Below, piece after piece: positions 3,148 through 61,328 of a DNA stretch of 64,000 nt. Every line of letters begins with the position of its first letter. The first letter of the stretch is position 1. Source of the stretch: Eledone cirrhosa (taxonomy: Eukaryota). The notes below the pieces were generated by a model. That model worked only from the letters and a program-made list of their open reading frames with translations, was not told the origin of the DNA and did no database searches. The stretch is taken from contig OZ024752.1 in assembly GCA_964016885.1 (NCBI GenBank), forward strand, positions 36,704,001 to 36,768,000, read 5' to 3'. A program made the translations under genes and the position numbers.

Positions 3148-3566
3148 TCCAAAATTTAGTTAAATTAAGGGAGTCATGTCCGAGACATGCGCCATATCCA
3201 CCGTAAAATAAGCTCAAAGATTCCAATGAATAGATCCGAGCATTTTATATCAACTATGAATTGATTGACATATATATATATATATAAAATAAACACATGA
3301 AACAATCACAGGGAATAATTTGTAAAGTGTGTAATCACACATAGCTAGGTAGGTAACTAATTAAAGTTTAACTAGAGCTTCAAATATAGATACCTTTTAA
3401 AAAGGATTAATCATTTTTAAAAGGTAATATTTGAAGTTCTAGTTAAACTTTAATTAGTTACCTATCTAGCTATGTGTGATTACACACTTTACAAATTATC
3501 CCCTGTGATTGTTTCATGTGTTTATTTTATATATATATATATATGTCAATCAATTTCTAGTTGATA
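3148..3566. mobile_element. (TA)n-embedded element family I, fold-back palindrome with ~155 bp arms
   Basis: About 3248-3405 is the reverse complement of about 3412-3566, centre ggattaatc. A second, non-palindromic copy lies at 48485-48735. Confidence 0.8.
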
Positions 3567-3599
3567 TATGTATATATATATATATATATATATATATAT

Positions 3600-3788
3600 A
3601 ACGAAGGAAATGTGGTAAGGAACCAGGTGGACCATAACGCACCAAAGTACTCAATACTTGAGGTAGTAGAGTGGGTAATAGGAACCAGTAAGACCCCGAC
3701 AGCTGAGCTCAAGCCGTTTCGACGGCTAATTCCAGAATTAGCCGTCGAAACGGCTTGAGCTCAGCTGTCGGGGTCTTACTGGTTCCTA
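3600..3788. mobile_element. Family A fold-back element carrying the 3' half of a hammerhead (GAAAC-stem III-GUC); about 11 copies
   Basis: gtcGAAACGGCTtgagctcAGC(C/T)GTCggggtc. Other copies: 6119-6287, 6355-6466, 6611-6799, 9811-10025, 48748-48924, 51697-51838, 52513-52708, 54000-54176, 56645-56852, variant 39467-39592. All lie in or beside (TA)n. Confidence 0.85.
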
Positions 3789-3968
3789 TATATATATATA
3801 TATATATATATATATATATATATACATACGGGGTAACAAATAATAGTTAAATGCAGTCCACCTAGGTAAAGTCCAGTTATGTAAAGCTATGTGATTAAAC
3901 CTTTTTTTGTATAGCAAACCATGTCAACCTTCTTTCCTGATTTATATATATATATATATGTGTGTATA

Positions 3969-4119
3969 CCGTATTTCCCGGCGTCAAAGACGCTACTTTT
4001 TTCCTAAAAGAAGTCTTTAAAATCTACAATACATCCTGGAGGCTGAAGGTTGTTTATTAATTTTTTTTTTATTTTTGGTTGCCAAAATTAGGGTGCGTCT
4101 TCGGCGCCGACAAATACGG
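3969..4119. mobile_element. Tc1/mariner-superfamily MITE (CCGTATTT TIR, TA target duplication)
   Basis: ta|ccgtatttcccggcg ... cgccgacaaatacgg|ta. Further copies at 31671-31943 and 34447-34580 (partial). Confidence 0.85.
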
Positions 4120-56590: not shown

Positions 56591-59074
56591 TACACACACA
56601 CACACACACACACACACACACACACATATATATATATATATATATGAACGAGTAGGACCCCGACAGCTGAGCTCAAGCCGTTTCGACGGCTAATTCTGGA
56701 CTAAAAGTTTCTTAAACCAGAATTAGCCGTCGAAACGGCTTGAGCTCAGCCGTCGGGGTCCTACTCGTTCATATTACCCACTCTACTACCCTAAGTATTG
56801 AGTACTTTGGTGCGTTATGGTCCATCTGGCTCCTTACCACATTTCCTTCGTTATATATATATATATATATATATATATATATATATATATATATATATAT
56901 ATATATATATATATATATATATATATATATATATATATATATATATATATATATATATATATATATGTATATATATATATATATATATATGTGTGTAAGT
57001 ATGTTTTGAAACAGTGAGCGAGTTTGAAATTAGAAATATAAGCTTTCACCGTATTTTTTACTAAAGACATTTTTAGCCTGATAGCGGGGTTTAGAACCCT
57101 CGGAGAAATGGAAAAAGATGAGTATTGACGTACATGGGAGTCGAGCCCACATCTTTGGTTATCCAAACCACTGTGCTACCATTACAACCAAAGATGTGGG
57201 TTCGACTCCCATGTACGTCAATACTCATCTTTTTCCATTTCTCCGAGGGTTCTAAACCCCGCTATCAGGCTAAAAGTTTCTTTAGTAAAAAATACGGTGA
57301 AAGCTTATATTTCTAATTTATATATATATATATATATATATATATATATATATATATATATATATATATATATATATATATATATATATATATTTAATAC
57401 AATGACAGAGATAGTTTAAAGCTAAACTCTGACTGGTAACCATCTCACTCAACAAACATTAGGTTATATTTAAATATAAACCCAATTTAAGTGTTTGGGG
57501 TGCTAACAATATGTATAATGTGGACAAACCAGTTGTATTATTTTATGAGATATAATTAAAGTTAAAGTATATCTCTCTTTCCAAACAATTGTTTCATTAT
57601 AAGTTTTCTACAAGTTGGGAGAATATTTCCAGTTTATGTAGAAGCCTAATATATATTCATGTAAGAATATATTTAGGTAGGCGTTTATAAATCATCAGTG
57701 GAAGCTCAATAAACTTTGATATAAGAAAGAAATTCTTACCGCAGTCAAAAATCGTGTCTGTTAAGTTGCTCCCTCTCGCCTCGAATGACCGCCAAATTTG
57801 AAATTCCAGCAGTTTTTGACTGAGGAAGTATCATAGCGACACGAAGCGGGAAGGGGAGACAACTACGATCCACGAAAGGAGGAAAAAAATAATATACACG
57901 CGGGTTAATTAGTTTTTTCGAAAACATTATCAATCCAACGTGTTAAGAACTCAATTGAAAATAAAAAAAATAAATATATGCGTGTATATATATATATATA
58001 TATATATATATATATGCCCGTTTGACAAGATTATCTACGTTTCAATCTGATAACAGATGCTCTATGTTCATTGGTCAGAAGGGATAATAGTATTGTCACG
58101 ACTGAATATGAATATTAAAGGCGTTAGTCTTCATCACCATATTTACAAAAAGAGAATATATATATATATATGTGTGTGTGTGTGTGTGTGTGTGTGTGTG
58201 TGTGTGTATATATATATATATGTGTGTGTGTGTGCGTGTGTAGTGTTGACAAACGAAGATTGATCAAAGTTTATTTCACCATCTTGTCTCGTTTTCTAAT
58301 CCTCTGGCTTTACTCTTTTAACATCAGATGTCTTTCTTATCTTTCTTATCTTTCTTCTTCTTTCATCCCCCTCCCCTCTCTCTCTCTCTCTTTCTCTCTA
58401 CCCCCCCCCCCCCCCTCTCCCTCTCGCGCTCTCTCAGTCTTTCTTTCAGTCCTAAATATAATAAATTTCAGATATGATAATGATAATGATAATGATAATG
58501 ATAATGATAATATGAAGCAATAAAAATAAAATAAAGAAAGTAAAACCTAAAATAAAACGAGTCAGAGAAATTTGTGCAGCTTAATTACTTACAGTGGGAA
58601 GACGAACATAAAATAGATGACTAACGATATGATATGTGTCATTTATCTTGTTTTCCTTCTGATAAAAGATGGCGGCAATATAGAGGAGAGTCGAAACAGA
58701 ATTAGTTACGCATAACAGTGTCAATATTTACTAAGATAATTGAGACTGAGCTGTATTGTAATTTGCTAATAATAAACTAATTTCTTTTTTTATTTTTAAT
58801 GAATATCAATCAATATATACACATGTAAGAATTACGTAAATAATAATATGCCAAAGGTAAATAAAATAAATATTTTAATTAAAATAAAGGAGCCCTGAAA
58901 GCAATGTTAAATTAAGTCTTTCACGGGGGTTAATTCCTCTTCCGGTTGAGAGATAATTCTTTCCTTTCCATGGATAAGCTGCTAAACGTAAAGACATCTT
59001 AAAGGATTAATTTCGGCTGTATGTATTAAATTAAATTTAAAGGTTTCCATCATCATTTTTATATAAGAAAATAT

Positions 59075-59350
59075 CATGTAGTTAGAATGTCTCAGAAAAG
59101 AATCGCTGGACCGACTTTACGGGCAAAATCAACCGACAGGAAACCCAGGGGGGTAGACTCCGAGCAAGATGGTTGGATAACATCTATGAGCTCGGCTGGT
59201 GTCACTTGGGGGATCCAGCCGGAACAGTTGAAGACAGTTGCTTCTGACTGGACTCGCTGGAAGGAGTGTTTGAGGAATCTGCTCCCACGAACCTCTCAGA
59301 AATAAGTGGGCGAAGAAGAAGAAGAAGAAGAAGAAGAAGAAGAAGAAGAA
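59075..59350 (+). pseudogene. RTE 3' fragment with (GAA)n tail
   Basis: HVVRMSQKRIAGPTLRAKSTDRKPRG...IQPEQLKTVASDWTRWKECLRNLLPR. Confidence 0.85.
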
Positions 59351-60899
59351 GTCTGCCACCCTGATATGTCGTCTGCCTCATGGTCCCGACCGATAGGTTA
59401 GAGAAGAAGATATAACCCGCTAAACTACTAACTGTTACTGGTGGAGTGGTATCGTCTGCTAGGAAGATTTTGAACTATATCATTCTATGGTAACTATTTT
59501 GCTACTGATTTCCGCCGTAAAGTCAGAAAGATGGCGGCACACCTGAGGAGAGGGGAGCTCTGTGAAATGGAGTGGCTATTGTAGCGGGTGTCTCTGGCCA
59601 TTCTCTGCCGTAACGCTTTTGCCATTTTGTCCGTGGGGTGCGGCTGAGGTACCGTTCAGACTAGTGTGTAATAACTGTCCCTCATCCTCTCCCTTTCTTT
59701 CGCTGCTTGATCCTTCTTTCTTTTTCTCCTTTAGTTTTCCATTTTCTTTCTTTTTTTCTTCTTCTTCCCTGTCTGTTCTCTTTAATAGCATGTCTTGTTT
59801 TTATTAGCTACTACATAATTATTTTTATATATAATGTCAATGACCTTTCATGACATTGTGAGATTTTGTATATCGAATGAATTATACTCTTGATAGATCT
59901 CTTCAAAGAAAGAAAATAGTTGCTAAACTATTAACTATTACTAGGGGAATGGCATCGCCTGTTTGGAAGATTTGAACTATATCATTCGATGATATCTACT
60001 TACAACTAGATGAGGGATGTTGGTTTTATATACACAGAATAGTGTCAGCTACAAAATATAAATCGCCTCAGCGGGTTTTCTGCTACCTTCTCTACTTAAA
60101 TACGTTTATTTCCGGTGTCAAATATATTTGTTATATAGATTTGTTTCTCCCATAAAAAAAAAAAAACTGTCTTTCGCAGAGTCGCTAGAGCGTCGGACAT
60201 GTTTTGTGGTATGTAGTTACGGTTCCTTATGTTCTAAGTTCAAATCTCGCCGAGGTTAGATTTGCCTTATATATATATATATATATATATACGTATATAT
60301 ATATATATATATATATATACGTATATATATATATATATATATATACGTATATATATATATATAGAGAGAGAGAGAGAGAGAGAGAGAGAGAAGTAGTAAC
60401 ACAGCAGTTAGTTCACCATACCGAGAACAATTGTTTCACCTTATGCGGATTATGCGGATCTTCAGCTCGGACTGGTCATATATATATAGAGAGAGAGAGA
60501 GAAGTAGTTCCACAACTAACTGTTGTGGAACTACTTCTACCAACAAACTCATCCCATAGACTGAGTGCTCTACTATTATATATATATATATATATATAGT
60601 TATGTAATAAACATGTAATAAACAACATAAGATAATTATTTCATTTGCCAGTGGTTTCTTGAAAGCAAACAAATCTGCTTTTAGTCATCAGAATGAAAAC
60701 ATCCTGGTGTTTTTATTGAATGTGGATTTGAAAACCTATTAAGCTCTGTAACCTACATAGAGCACTCTGTTTTCCTGGACCTTTCCGACGGAATTACTTC
60801 ATTTACACACACACACACACGCGCGGGCGCGCACACACACACACACACACACACACACACACACACACACACACACACACACACACACATATATATATG

Positions 60900-61162
60900 A
60901 ATGAAGTAATTCCGTCGGAAAGGTACAAGAAAAAAGAATGCTCTATGTAGGCTACAGAGATTATTAGTTATGTAATAAACAACATAAGATAATTATTTCA
61001 TTTACCAGTGGTTTCTTGAAAGCAGATATATCTGTTTTCAATCGTCAGAATGAATAAAACACCATGTTTTATTCATTCTGACGACTGAAAACAGATATAT
61101 CTGCTTTCAAGAAACCACTGGTAAATGTAATAATTATCTTATGTTGTTTATTACATAACTAA
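60900..61162. ncRNA. Family J fold-back with back-to-back hammerheads (minus 60997-61054, plus 61072-61129)
   Basis: Centre aaaac-accat-gtttt; both arms carry the private stem II cagatatatctg. Confidence 0.9.
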
Positions 61163-61328
61163 TATATATATATATATAATATATATATATATATATATAA
61201 TAGTAGAACACTGGAGAGTTATATCTGTAGTAGTAGAGCACTCAGTCCATGGGACGAGTTTGGTAGAAGTAGTTGAACAACAGTTAGTTGTGGAACTACT
61301 CTTTCTCTCTCTCTATATATATATATAT

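What the first reader, a model, noticed from the sequence alone, without database searches (positions are those of the whole stretch)
3148..61300. At least 13 hammerhead-ribozyme mini-element families colonising (TA)n microsatellites
Seen: the short unique islands between (TA)n tracts are not random. Families B, C, D, E, F, F2, H, J, N, O, Q, R and V each fold by hand into stem I-CYGANGA-stem II-GAAA-stem III-NUH-stem I, with different stem sequences (F and F2 are related). There are more than 20 cores in 64 kb, often with AATAAA downstream and no ORF. Established: type I and minimal hammerheads occur in Penelope pLTRs and in non-autonomous non-LTR retrozymes. Inference: this genome hosts a diverse, microsatellite-targeted population of ribozyme-bearing retroelements, probably mobilised by a Penelope-like RT/GIY-YIG enzyme. 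I do not know of a description at this diversity in cephalopods, but I could not search.
Basis: partly seen in the sequence, partly recalled or inferred. Interest (0 to 1): 0.92.

Follow-up and report, generated by a model that had tools for sequence, protein, structure and literature searches.

The report
Penelope retrotransposon tails carrying hammerhead ribozymes
The short repeats between the TA runs do carry hammerhead-shaped RNA motifs, and most are the broken-off tail ends of many different Penelope-like jumping genes, a known kind of element that here is very diverse and likely extremely abundant; self-cutting is predicted, not tested.

Summary
The motifs are real: 19 strict type I hammerhead cores in the window (21 relaxed) against 0.03 per shuffle; 18 of 21 end within 200 nt of (TA)n. 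Well-formed cores fall into 8-9 families; 13 is reached only by counting sub-families and damaged copies. AATAAA is not enriched. They are mostly not ORF-less mini-elements: 9 of 10 families traced in the genome adjoin a reverse-transcriptase/GIY-YIG ORF (7 Hydra-type, 1 Neptune-type, 1 other). The window holds their 5'-truncated, often back-to-back 3' ends. One family is an ORF-less 420-bp tandem unit (retrozyme). The commonest family has a U3-A8 core that all 11 window copies have lost. All this is a described kind: hammerheads in Penelope pLTRs, Hydra-clade (TA)n insertion including one octopus family, U3-A8 cores, retrozymes. Not found in print: the scale (about 250,000 cores by extrapolation from 400 kb; Hydra-type proteins 30-60% identical) and signs that copying uses uncut RNA (3 of 374 arms start at the cut site; a sub-family with a C3-A8 mismatch spread). 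The scan noted Hydra-clade, U3-A8 and retrozyme cases before on other DNA of this genome.

The parts
37778..38100 (+). F1 pLTR remnant, minimal type I hammerhead at 37833-37877; Neptune-type parent
   Evidence: intact parent ORF between two pLTRs in L013
39043..39304 (-). F1 remnant, damaged hammerhead (core at 39245)
40135..40754 (-). F1 copy with hammerhead 40295-40337, the last 35 codons of the endonuclease ORF (40543-40647) and a short inverted arm
   Evidence: tblastn 83% identity, E 3e-13
55742..56080 (+). F1 remnant, hammerhead 55880-55924, inverted tail piece at its 5' end
54247..54632 (+). F1b sister family, core at 54347 with imperfect stem I; parent not traced
9584..9768 (-). F2 back-to-back remnant, hammerhead 9664-9710; Hydra-type parent
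   Evidence: same ORF beside F2 in L273, L274, L276
40768..40950 (-). F2 back-to-back remnant, hammerhead 40771-40821 with 4-bp stem III
11175..11323 (.). F2 back-to-back remnant truncated 3' of the core
12347..12484 (.). F2 remnant, damaged core at 12440
42010..42191 (.). F2 remnant, core at 42145, stem III deleted
45324..45786 (.). two F2 remnants either side of a (TC)n(TA)n(GA)n tract; core at 45423
22037..22203 (+). F3 remnant, hammerhead 22094-22164, palindromic stem III; Hydra-type parent
   Evidence: ORF joined to F3 without a break in L167, one locus
23607..24033 (.). F3 palindrome: two hammerheads back to back (23731-23801 minus, 23928-23998 plus), long arm with tail
53095..53291 (-). 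F3 remnant, hammerhead 53125-53195, inverted tail piece
56151..56360 (-). F3b, relative of F3, hammerhead 56284-56347; parent only suggested (one locus, L229, ORF on the opposite strand)
29663..29818 (-). F4 remnant, hammerhead 29705-29764; Hydra-type parent
   Evidence: ORF between F4 ends in L225, one locus
35654..35942 (+). F4 remnant with tail, hammerhead 35780-35839
60599..61161 (.). two F4 insertions; hammerheads 60997-61054 (minus), 61074-61127 (plus), damaged core at 60691
10205..10365 (-). F5 remnant, minimal hammerhead 10303-10340; Hydra-type parent
   Evidence: ORF ends 187-194 nt upstream in L148/L173 and L062
60389..60576 (-). F5 remnant, hammerhead 60421-60470; further F5 tail fragments at 48444-48483, 50176-50219, 61200-61313
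19531..19900 (-). F6 remnant, core at 19649, 2-bp stem I, palindromic stem III; parent with CCHH-type GIY-YIG endonuclease
   Evidence: endonuclease hit about 1.5 kb upstream in 9 of 20 loci
48113..48393 (+). F6 remnant with a C-to-T change at core position 3
22290..22851 (-). F7: about 1.3 units of an ORF-less 420-bp tandem repeat (retrozyme type), hammerhead 22552-22594
39644..39983 (+). F7 partial unit, hammerhead 39663-39705; fragment also at 28656-28812
50516..51145 (+). F8 remnant, CCGAAGA core, hammerhead 50891-50939; Hydra-type parent
   Evidence: pLTR-ORF-pLTR in L164, L165, L166
55095..55313 (+). F8 remnant, hammerhead 55222-55268; tail fragment at 24332-24415
29970..30100 (-). F9 remnant, hammerhead 30015-30070; Hydra-type parent
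   Evidence: ORF linked in 9 of 20 loci
55370..55581 (.). F10 back-to-back remnant, both cores damaged (55447 plus, 55432 minus); intact copy in L163; parent not traced
3601..3786 (.). family A back-to-back remnant, cut inside stem II so the U3-A8 core is absent; Hydra-type parent
6120..6798 (.). three family A remnants (6120-6286, 6357-6464, 6613-6798), core absent
9813..10024 (.). family A remnant, core absent
39462..39591 (.). family A sister remnant, core absent
48745..48923 (.). family A sister remnant, core absent
51698..52707 (.). two family A remnants (51698-51836, 52515-52707), core absent
54002..54175 (.). family A remnant, core absent
56646..56851 (.). family A remnant, core absent
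56377..56500 (+). 3' half of another hammerhead family (long stem II, palindromic stem III), core cut off in this copy
   Evidence: longer copies L081, L287
51494..51531 (+). U3-A8-type minimal hammerhead with GCAA in place of GAAA; damaged
   Evidence: read by eye
12230..12275 (+). single degenerate hammerhead-like motif, no second copy in the loci held
   Evidence: read by eye

Best explanation
The islands are the 3' ends (pseudo-LTRs, each with a type I hammerhead motif) of many Penelope-like retrotransposon families, mostly Hydra-type, likely piled into (TA)n tracts by their own GIY-YIG endonuclease and reverse transcriptase. Shown: motif excess over chance, family structure, ORF linkage for 9 of 10 traced families, two fixed 3' ends per family, variable 5' ends, back-to-back arms, and one ORF-less 420-bp tandem family. 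Inferred mechanism, by analogy with the in vitro work on an Anolis element (PMC11167929): the protein nicks AT-rich DNA on both strands and starts reverse transcription at two internal sites 3' of the hammerhead, which gives a long arm with a 40-160 nt tail and a short inverted arm. Synthesis usually stops early, so only the hammerhead region is fixed in DNA, and each insertion leaves (TA)n on both sides as a target for the next. The template is likely uncut at the hammerhead. Cutting is predicted: as dimers for families with palindromic stem III (F3, F5, F7, F8, F9), as monomers for A, F2 and F4; it would trim tandem transcripts rather than drive insertion. ORF-less units (F7; a 299-bp array made from family A) would be copied in trans by the same enzymes.
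For: 19 strict cores vs 0.03 in shuffles; 34 in a 400-kb sample vs 0-1. F1: 1282-codon open frame between two hammerhead-bearing pLTRs plus an inverted copy (L013), weak RVT_1 match E 2e-4, and the ORF end lies in the window 210 nt from a core. Family A: 786-codon frame between two pLTRs (L170); its model (pLDDT 93.7) matches reverse transcriptases, with telomerase RTs giving the highest query TM-scores among the top rows, 0.33-0.37. F8: pLTR-ORF-pLTR in 3 of 3 extended loci, weak GIY-YIG match E 0.003. F9: 9 of 20 loci; F2: 3 of 12 extended loci; F6: 9 of 20, five of them within 0.5 Mb; F5: 2 loci; F3 and F4: 1 locus each. DKT and CxCX5C motifs as defined for Hydra. Two discrete 3' ends per family. 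29 of 34 sampled cores within 200 nt of (TA)n vs 21% background. Stem I covaries in F2: 3 pairs and 13 cells changed on both sides, 0 of 500 shuffles reach the score. 280 of 374 arms run through the cut site, 3 of 374 start at it.
Against: No cleavage or RNA evidence was obtained. F3 and F4 links rest on one locus each, two of the three F2 links are on the opposite strand, and F3b, F10, F1b were not traced. Pfam gave 0 families for 6 of 9 parent-ORF queries and PDB sequence searches gave nothing useful. Clade names rest on motifs and a by-eye comparison with the published Hydra-1_Obim protein, not on a tree with references. The covariation control does not remove relatedness. A short copy could come from a separately transcribed short derivative rather than a full-length parent: in F3 many copies begin at one point. 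Several window cores are damaged, and for most minimal cores the predicted lowest-energy fold is not the hammerhead fold.
Confidence: 0.86

Rival explanations
1. Most islands are stand-alone non-autonomous mini-elements or retrozymes with their own RNA, mobilised in trans.
For: True for F7: tandem units about 420 bp apart in at least 7 of 20 loci, up to 7 or more units, with no ORF of its own. A 299-bp ORF-less array of family A exists (L079). F3 palindromes with a near-identical centre occur at 40 of 40 best-scoring loci.
Against: 9 of 10 traced families adjoin an ORF. 5' ends vary while 3' ends are fixed. F3 junctions differ among unselected copies, and diagnostic bases are mirrored in both arms, as expected if each palindrome forms at insertion.
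Confidence: 0.1
2. The hammerhead folds are kept but cutting is weak or dispensable; they act mainly as RNA structure (a stop for reverse transcriptase, or a protected, protein-bound RNA end). Not exclusive with the best explanation.
For: 3 of 374 arms start at the cut site. 23 of the first 100 listed family A cores have C3-A8, an unpaired core, and share other bases in 6 loci. 5' ends pile up at the 5' edge of stem I in F2 (20 of 34 arms) and inside stem II in A (34 of 53 arms). In the Anolis element core mutants do not affect insertion (PMC11167929, passages).
Against: Across families the core letters are constant while position 7 varies, the 3-8 pair covaries (C-G to U-A), and H17 is never G among descriptor-free family matches; this is the pattern of selection on catalysis. 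No such pile-up in F1 or F9. The F2 pile-up can be inflated by sub-family divergence.
Confidence: 0.3
3. The (TA)n tracts are not targets; they grow from or are added by the elements after insertion.
For: Some families carry short internal TA runs (F7 unit, F4 3' region); target duplications cannot be seen inside a repeat.
Against: Unrelated families are stacked in the same tracts and are bounded by TA on both sides; in tandem copies the tail continues into the ORF start, not into TA; (TA)n preference is reported for Hydra elements and AT-rich nicking was measured in vitro.
Confidence: 0.07
4. Chance matches found by hand-folding AT-rich repeats.
For: One SINE family shows a CCGAGGA word with no hammerhead around it; the relaxed descriptor gives about 1 chance hit per window.
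Against: 19 vs 0.03; all cores on the ORF's sense strand just 3' of it where traced; covariation.
Confidence: 0.01

Closest known systems
Hydra clade of C-terminal EN+ Penelope-like elements, including Hydra-1_Obim of Octopus bimaculoides (Craig et al. 2021, PMC8557442; passages, section 11, supplement part 2 of 59 and search hits seen)
   Same: RT plus C-terminal GIY-YIG, DKT and CxCX5C motifs, type I hammerhead near the 3' end, (TA)n insertion, inverted truncated copies.
   Different: The paper lists one octopus Hydra family (14 for Hydra magnipapillata). Here seven Hydra-type families share one 64-kb window and their proteins are 30-60% identical where they overlap. None carries the Hydra-1_Obim hammerhead (0 matches in 1.54 Mb). 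Units are longer (A 3.1 kb, F8 4.7 kb) and tails 40-160 nt rather than 30-40.
Minimal hammerheads of metazoan Penelope-like elements (Cervera and De la Pena 2014, PMC4209133; parts 1-2 of 4 read)
   Same: Thousands of heterogeneous motifs in consensus families, mostly single truncated copies, pairs on opposite strands 100-700 bp apart, palindromic stem III, and the U3-A8 core (Schistosoma).
   Different: Highest counts there are about 9,000 (Xenopus) and 4,000 (coelacanth); the sample here extrapolates to about 250,000, with a different descriptor. Family A pairs U3-A8 with a long stem II and a 6-bp stem III whose lowest-energy fold is the hammerhead.
Animal non-LTR retrozymes (Cervera and de la Pena 2020, PMC7229834, passages; Li et al. 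2026, bioRxiv 10.64898/2026.07.22.740005, part 1 of 5 and passages; its supplements not seen)
   Same: F7 and the 299-bp family A array: ORF-less head-to-tail units with a type I hammerhead in consecutive units; origin from Penelope pLTRs.
   Different: F7's 420-bp unit is slightly above the mussel 350-390 bp. No cephalopod is named in the passages seen. Circular RNA untested here. Most window families are not of this kind.
Anolis Poseidon element PAc studied in vitro (PMC11167929; passages)
   Same: Two internal start sites giving a tail, AT-rich targets, uncut RNA as the main template.
   Different: Different clade; there the ORF starts inside the hammerhead, here in or after the tail.
Neptune-type Penelope-like elements (as summarised in PMC8557442)
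   Same: F1 has a CX2-5CxxC linker and C-terminal endonuclease.
   Different: Clade not tested by phylogeny.

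Membership tests
Type I hammerhead ribozyme | CUGANGA, GAAA and NUH boxes with stems I-III in type I order | tested here: met
   19 strict, 21 relaxed hits; shuffles 0.03 and 1.0
Type I hammerhead ribozyme | Compensatory changes in stems and core | tested here: met
   F2 stem I; F4, F7, F9 variants and U3-A8 core with free position 7; relatedness not controlled
Type I hammerhead ribozyme | Self-cleavage at NUH | not testable with these tools
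   needs in vitro assay
EN+ Penelope-like elements | Telomerase-related RT with GIY-YIG endonuclease in one ORF | tested here: met
   fold search of family A model; weak RVT_1 (F1) and GIY-YIG (F8) Pfam hits below cut-off; motifs
EN+ Penelope-like elements | Pseudo-LTRs flanking the ORF, each with a hammerhead | tested here: met
   L013 (F1), L170 (A), L164-L166 (F8)
EN+ Penelope-like elements | 5' truncation, inverted copy at the 5' end, tail at one end | tested here: met
   tails longer than the published 30-40 nt
Hydra clade | DKT motif and CxCX5C linker | tested here: met
   DKT in A and F8; CxCX5C in A, F2, F3, F8; last C is Y in the one F4 copy; not covered in the partial F5 and F9 frames
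Hydra clade | RWK motif at the N-terminus | tested here: inconclusive
   RWR in A and F8, LWR in F9; the published Obim protein reads RWK at the matching place
Hydra clade | No CCHH zinc finger in the endonuclease; no insertion-in-fingers domain | tested here: inconclusive
   CCHH not seen by eye in A, F3, F8; insertion-in-fingers domain not examined
Hydra clade | (TA)n insertion and canonical hammerhead | tested here: met
   family A has the U3-A8 variant
Hydra clade | Generally under 3 kb | tested here: not met
   pLTR-to-pLTR 3.1 kb (A) and 4.7 kb (F8); a tendency in the paper, not a strict rule
Hydra clade | Phylogenetic placement with reference Hydra RTs | not tested
   only a by-eye comparison with Hydra-1_Obim
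Neptune clade (F1) | CX2-5CxxC linker before a CCHH-type endonuclease | tested here: met
   CCHH by eye; Nematis shares the linker, so the clade is not settled
Non-LTR retrozyme (F7, L079 array) | ORF-less tandem units with a complete type I hammerhead in two or more consecutive units | tested here: met
Non-LTR retrozyme (F7, L079 array) | Expressed as circular RNA | not testable with these tools
   no RNA data laid
Non-LTR retrozyme (other window families) | No ORF in the family | tested here: not met
   9 of 10 traced families adjoin an ORF
Non-circularly permuted hammerheads (type SGC, CSG, GCS; PMC10085705, passages) | Blocks C, G, S in non-circular order with three stems of 4 bp or more | tested here: not met
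   0 in the window and 0 in the 400-kb sample; a form with shorter or rebuilt stems would be missed

The most novel reading that the evidence does not exclude
This genome carries the largest hammerhead load so far counted in an animal (about a quarter of a million intact cores from 25 or more families, a Hydra-clade radiation far beyond the one published octopus family), and its copies record that Penelope enzymes copy uncut RNA and stop at the folded ribozyme: the hammerhead serves transposition as a structure rather than as a knife, a core-mismatched sub-family still spread to over a thousand copies, and retrozymes are caught being born from a Hydra pLTR by one deletion.
Probability: 0.3. 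Interest if true: 0.65.

Novelty: new member of a known kind. Interest (0 to 1): 0.42.

Why it matters
Why Penelope-like elements keep a hammerhead is described as unclear (PMC8557442), and the one in vitro system shows cutting is not needed for insertion (PMC11167929). A genome with dozens of young families, intact parents, natural core variants (C3-G8, U3-A8, C3-A8), monomer- and dimer-type folds and retrozymes derived from them offers ready-made comparisons to test that question. It also suggests that much of the short sequence between octopus-type (TA)n tracts is Penelope debris that Rfam's top rows and Pfam cut-offs miss.

Tried and rejected
Rfam scan: no hammerhead family in the 150 of 435 rows shown. 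Pfam and PDB sequence searches of parent ORFs were mostly blank; the single-sequence fold was unusable (pLDDT 32) and was replaced by an alignment-based one. A canonical CYGANGA core directly before family A's stem II: 0 matches genome-wide, which led to the U3-A8 core. Non-circular permutations, a lead from earlier notes: none in the window. A-to-G editing in ten window palindromes, also a lead: no one-sided excess. The family at 3025-3117, 34037-34358 and 42730-42943 is a SINE 3' end with CCGAGGA on its antisense strand, rejected as a hammerhead. A 5'-end pile-up at the hammerhead edge in F9 vanished with sub-family references and was dropped. An apparent ORF link for F7 was rejected: L174 has a TA run between, and the ORF piece in L263 belongs to F5. 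Hits to the N-terminal parts of two protein seeds were translations of family A DNA and were disregarded. Sequencing runs: no RNA holder listed; no reads were laid. AATAAA enrichment rejected.

Full report
Setting. The window is G000:C12:36704001-36768000 of a 3.0-Gb animal genome. I read it as octopus-type from its SINEs (recalled) and from the likeness of its proteins to a published octopus element; no call names the organism. It has 176 (TA)5+ runs covering 5.3 kb, about the density of the genome sample.

Checking the observation. A type I descriptor (stem I of 4 bp or more, CYGANGA, stem II, GAAA, stem III, NUH) finds 19 motifs; 60 block-wise dinucleotide shuffles give a mean of 0.03, and the reversed and complemented window give 0. 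Relaxed settings give 21 against 1.0. The strict hits form 7-8 clusters; with F5 that is 8-9 well-formed families (F1, F2, F3, F3b, F4, F5, F7, F8, F9). 18 of 21 cores end within 200 nt of (TA)n against 35% of background positions. AATAAA is not enriched (3 of 21). The island at the finding's start has no core. Rfam's 150 shown rows of 435 hold no hammerhead.

What the families are. I traced ten families through the genome. F1 is the pLTR of an element with a 1282-codon open frame flanked by two hammerhead-bearing repeats and an inverted copy (L013); all six extended loci had ORF pieces, and the window itself holds the last 35 codons at 40543-40647. It has a CX2-5CxxC linker. Family A, the commonest in the window (11 insertions), lacks a core in every window copy; a canonical core is absent genome-wide, and longer copies show UUGANAA, a U3-A8 core, before a long stem II. 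Its parent is a 786-codon frame between two pLTRs (L170). That protein has 834 homologues at E 1e-30 among 7,994 scored, folds with pLDDT 93.7 and matches reverse transcriptases, telomerases giving the best query TM-scores. F8 gives pLTR-ORF-pLTR in 3 of 3 extended loci. F9 adjoins an ORF in 9 of 20 loci and F2 in 3 of 12; F6 in 9 of 20, five of them close together; F5 in 2 loci; F3 and F4 in one each. The proteins of A, F2, F3, F4, F5, F8 and F9 are 30-60% identical where they overlap and show DKT and CxCX5C where covered, the marks of the Hydra clade; they do not align with F1. F6 has a CCHH-type endonuclease. F7 is the exception: a 420-bp unit in head-to-tail arrays, with no ORF of its own in 20 loci; the window copy is about 1.3 units. 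F3b, F10 and F1b were not traced.

Anatomy of the insertions. Each family has two fixed 3' ends, 42-164 nt apart, and variable 5' ends. Many copies are back to back: a long arm with the tail and a short inverted arm. [quoted passage not shown] This is the published form of Penelope insertions and fits the two internal start sites found in vitro for an Anolis element. Of 374 arms from loci not chosen for that family, 280 run through the predicted cut site and 3 begin at it (arms under 28 nt are missed), so the copied RNA was likely uncut there, as in vitro. 5' ends pile up at the edge of stem I in F2 (20 of 34) and inside stem II in A (34 of 53) but not in F1 or F9.

Are the folds under selection? 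In F2, with stems left free in the search, stem I shows 3 pairs and 13 cells changed on both sides; 0 of 500 shuffles reach the score, and slid structures fall to 33-48% paired (20 of 22 distinct copies used, two left out as a junction-altered copy and a duplicate of a window copy; relatedness is not removed). F4, F7 and F9 show similar swaps. Stem III is palindromic in F3, F5, F7, F8 and F9, the dimer design of Cervera and De la Pena; A's lowest-energy fold is the hammerhead itself. Against a strict need for cutting, 23 of the first 100 listed family A cores have an unpaired C3-A8 and form a sub-family.

Scale. Forty 10-kb stretches at round-number positions on 25 large contigs gave 34 strict cores in 15-17 clusters, against 0-1 in 10 shuffles. 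By hand arithmetic that is 85 per Mb, about 250,000 for the genome (Poisson range about 180,000-360,000; the sample is small, not truly random, and includes paired arms). The window is about 3.5 times denser. All 1.54 Mb held at that point gave 25-28 clusters.

Comparison with what is known. Hammerheads in pLTRs, thousands of truncated copies in families, opposite-strand pairs and the U3-A8 core are in Cervera and De la Pena 2014 (parts 1-2 of 4). The Hydra clade, its (TA)n preference and an octopus member with a canonical hammerhead are in Craig et al. 2021 (passages, section 11, supplement part 2 of 59). Retrozymes and their Penelope origin are in PMC7229834 (passages) and Li et al. 2026 (part 1 of 5 and passages, supplements not seen). 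Bonar et al. 2026 count 31 recently active Penelope-like families in O. vulgaris and do not mention ribozymes (part 1 of 3 and term search). The giant squid paper counts 235 hammerhead_1 loci (passage). A 2017 paper on small dimeric hammerheads of Penelope-like elements (Lunse et al.) is recalled, was not seen, and may cover molluscs. Searches found no hammerhead census for a cephalopod; the library lacks most subscription papers and Repbase. Earlier notes of this scan on the same genome report Hydra-clade, U3-A8, retrozyme and permuted cases; I used them as leads, tested the permuted and editing leads in this window with negative results, and had reached the U3-A8 and Hydra reading.

Verdict. 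A real and dense population of Penelope pLTR hammerheads, mostly Hydra-type, with one true retrozyme family: new members of known kinds. The interest lies in the scale and in the natural comparisons it offers on whether cutting matters, not in a new class of element. Interest 0.42.

Noticed in passing
window 28938-29038 (-): 5'-truncated U6 snRNA copy (Rfam 88.5 bits) that begins in a (TA)n tract.
   Followed up: no
window 18949-19169, 34589-34933, 52820-53069, 56995-57318: A tRNA-headed family (Rfam tRNA match at 34760-34830) in back-to-back form between (TA)n tracts but with no hammerhead core; possibly a SINE-like passenger of Penelope enzymes.
   Followed up: partly
window 3149-3570 and 48491-48735: Palindromic (TA)n-bounded family without a recognisable core.
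   Followed up: partly
L079 (G000:C2:356027500-356035500): 299-bp array of 8 units made from family A: hammerhead with shortened stem II, tail and the first codons of the ORF joined back to the core; a retrozyme derived directly from a Hydra-type pLTR.
   Followed up: partly
family A genome-wide: 5,558 matches to the core pattern; of the first 100 listed, 74 are U3-A8, 23 C3-A8, 3 U3-G8 and none C3-G8 (counted by hand); the C3-A8 copies share other bases.
   Followed up: partly
L140, L057, L066; L156, L162: Two further, unrelated U3-A8 hammerhead families in the genome.
   Followed up: no
window 22590-22720 (-), F7 unit: ATGCAAAT and ATGCATAA words upstream of the hammerhead, like an octamer promoter element (recalled motif).
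   Followed up: no
window 23850-23880; L080: Back-to-back junctions of F3 and of one family A copy fall on short palindromes (CATATG, CCATATGG), suggesting self-priming hot spots.
   Followed up: partly
F2 and family A tails (e.g. 40850-40950, 9945-10024): The two families share a short tail motif around GTATTGAGTAC although their hammerheads differ; many other tails contain GAGTGCTC-like words.
   Followed up: no
window 7992-8170 and 45918-46094: Repeat with a CCGACGA word on the minus strand that does not form stem I; GC-rich and structured, identity not worked out.
   Followed up: no
window 53364-53646: Three tandem copies of a 90-bp inverted-repeat-ended unit, MITE-like.
   Followed up: no
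window 43866-44065: 200-base assembly gap.
   Followed up: no
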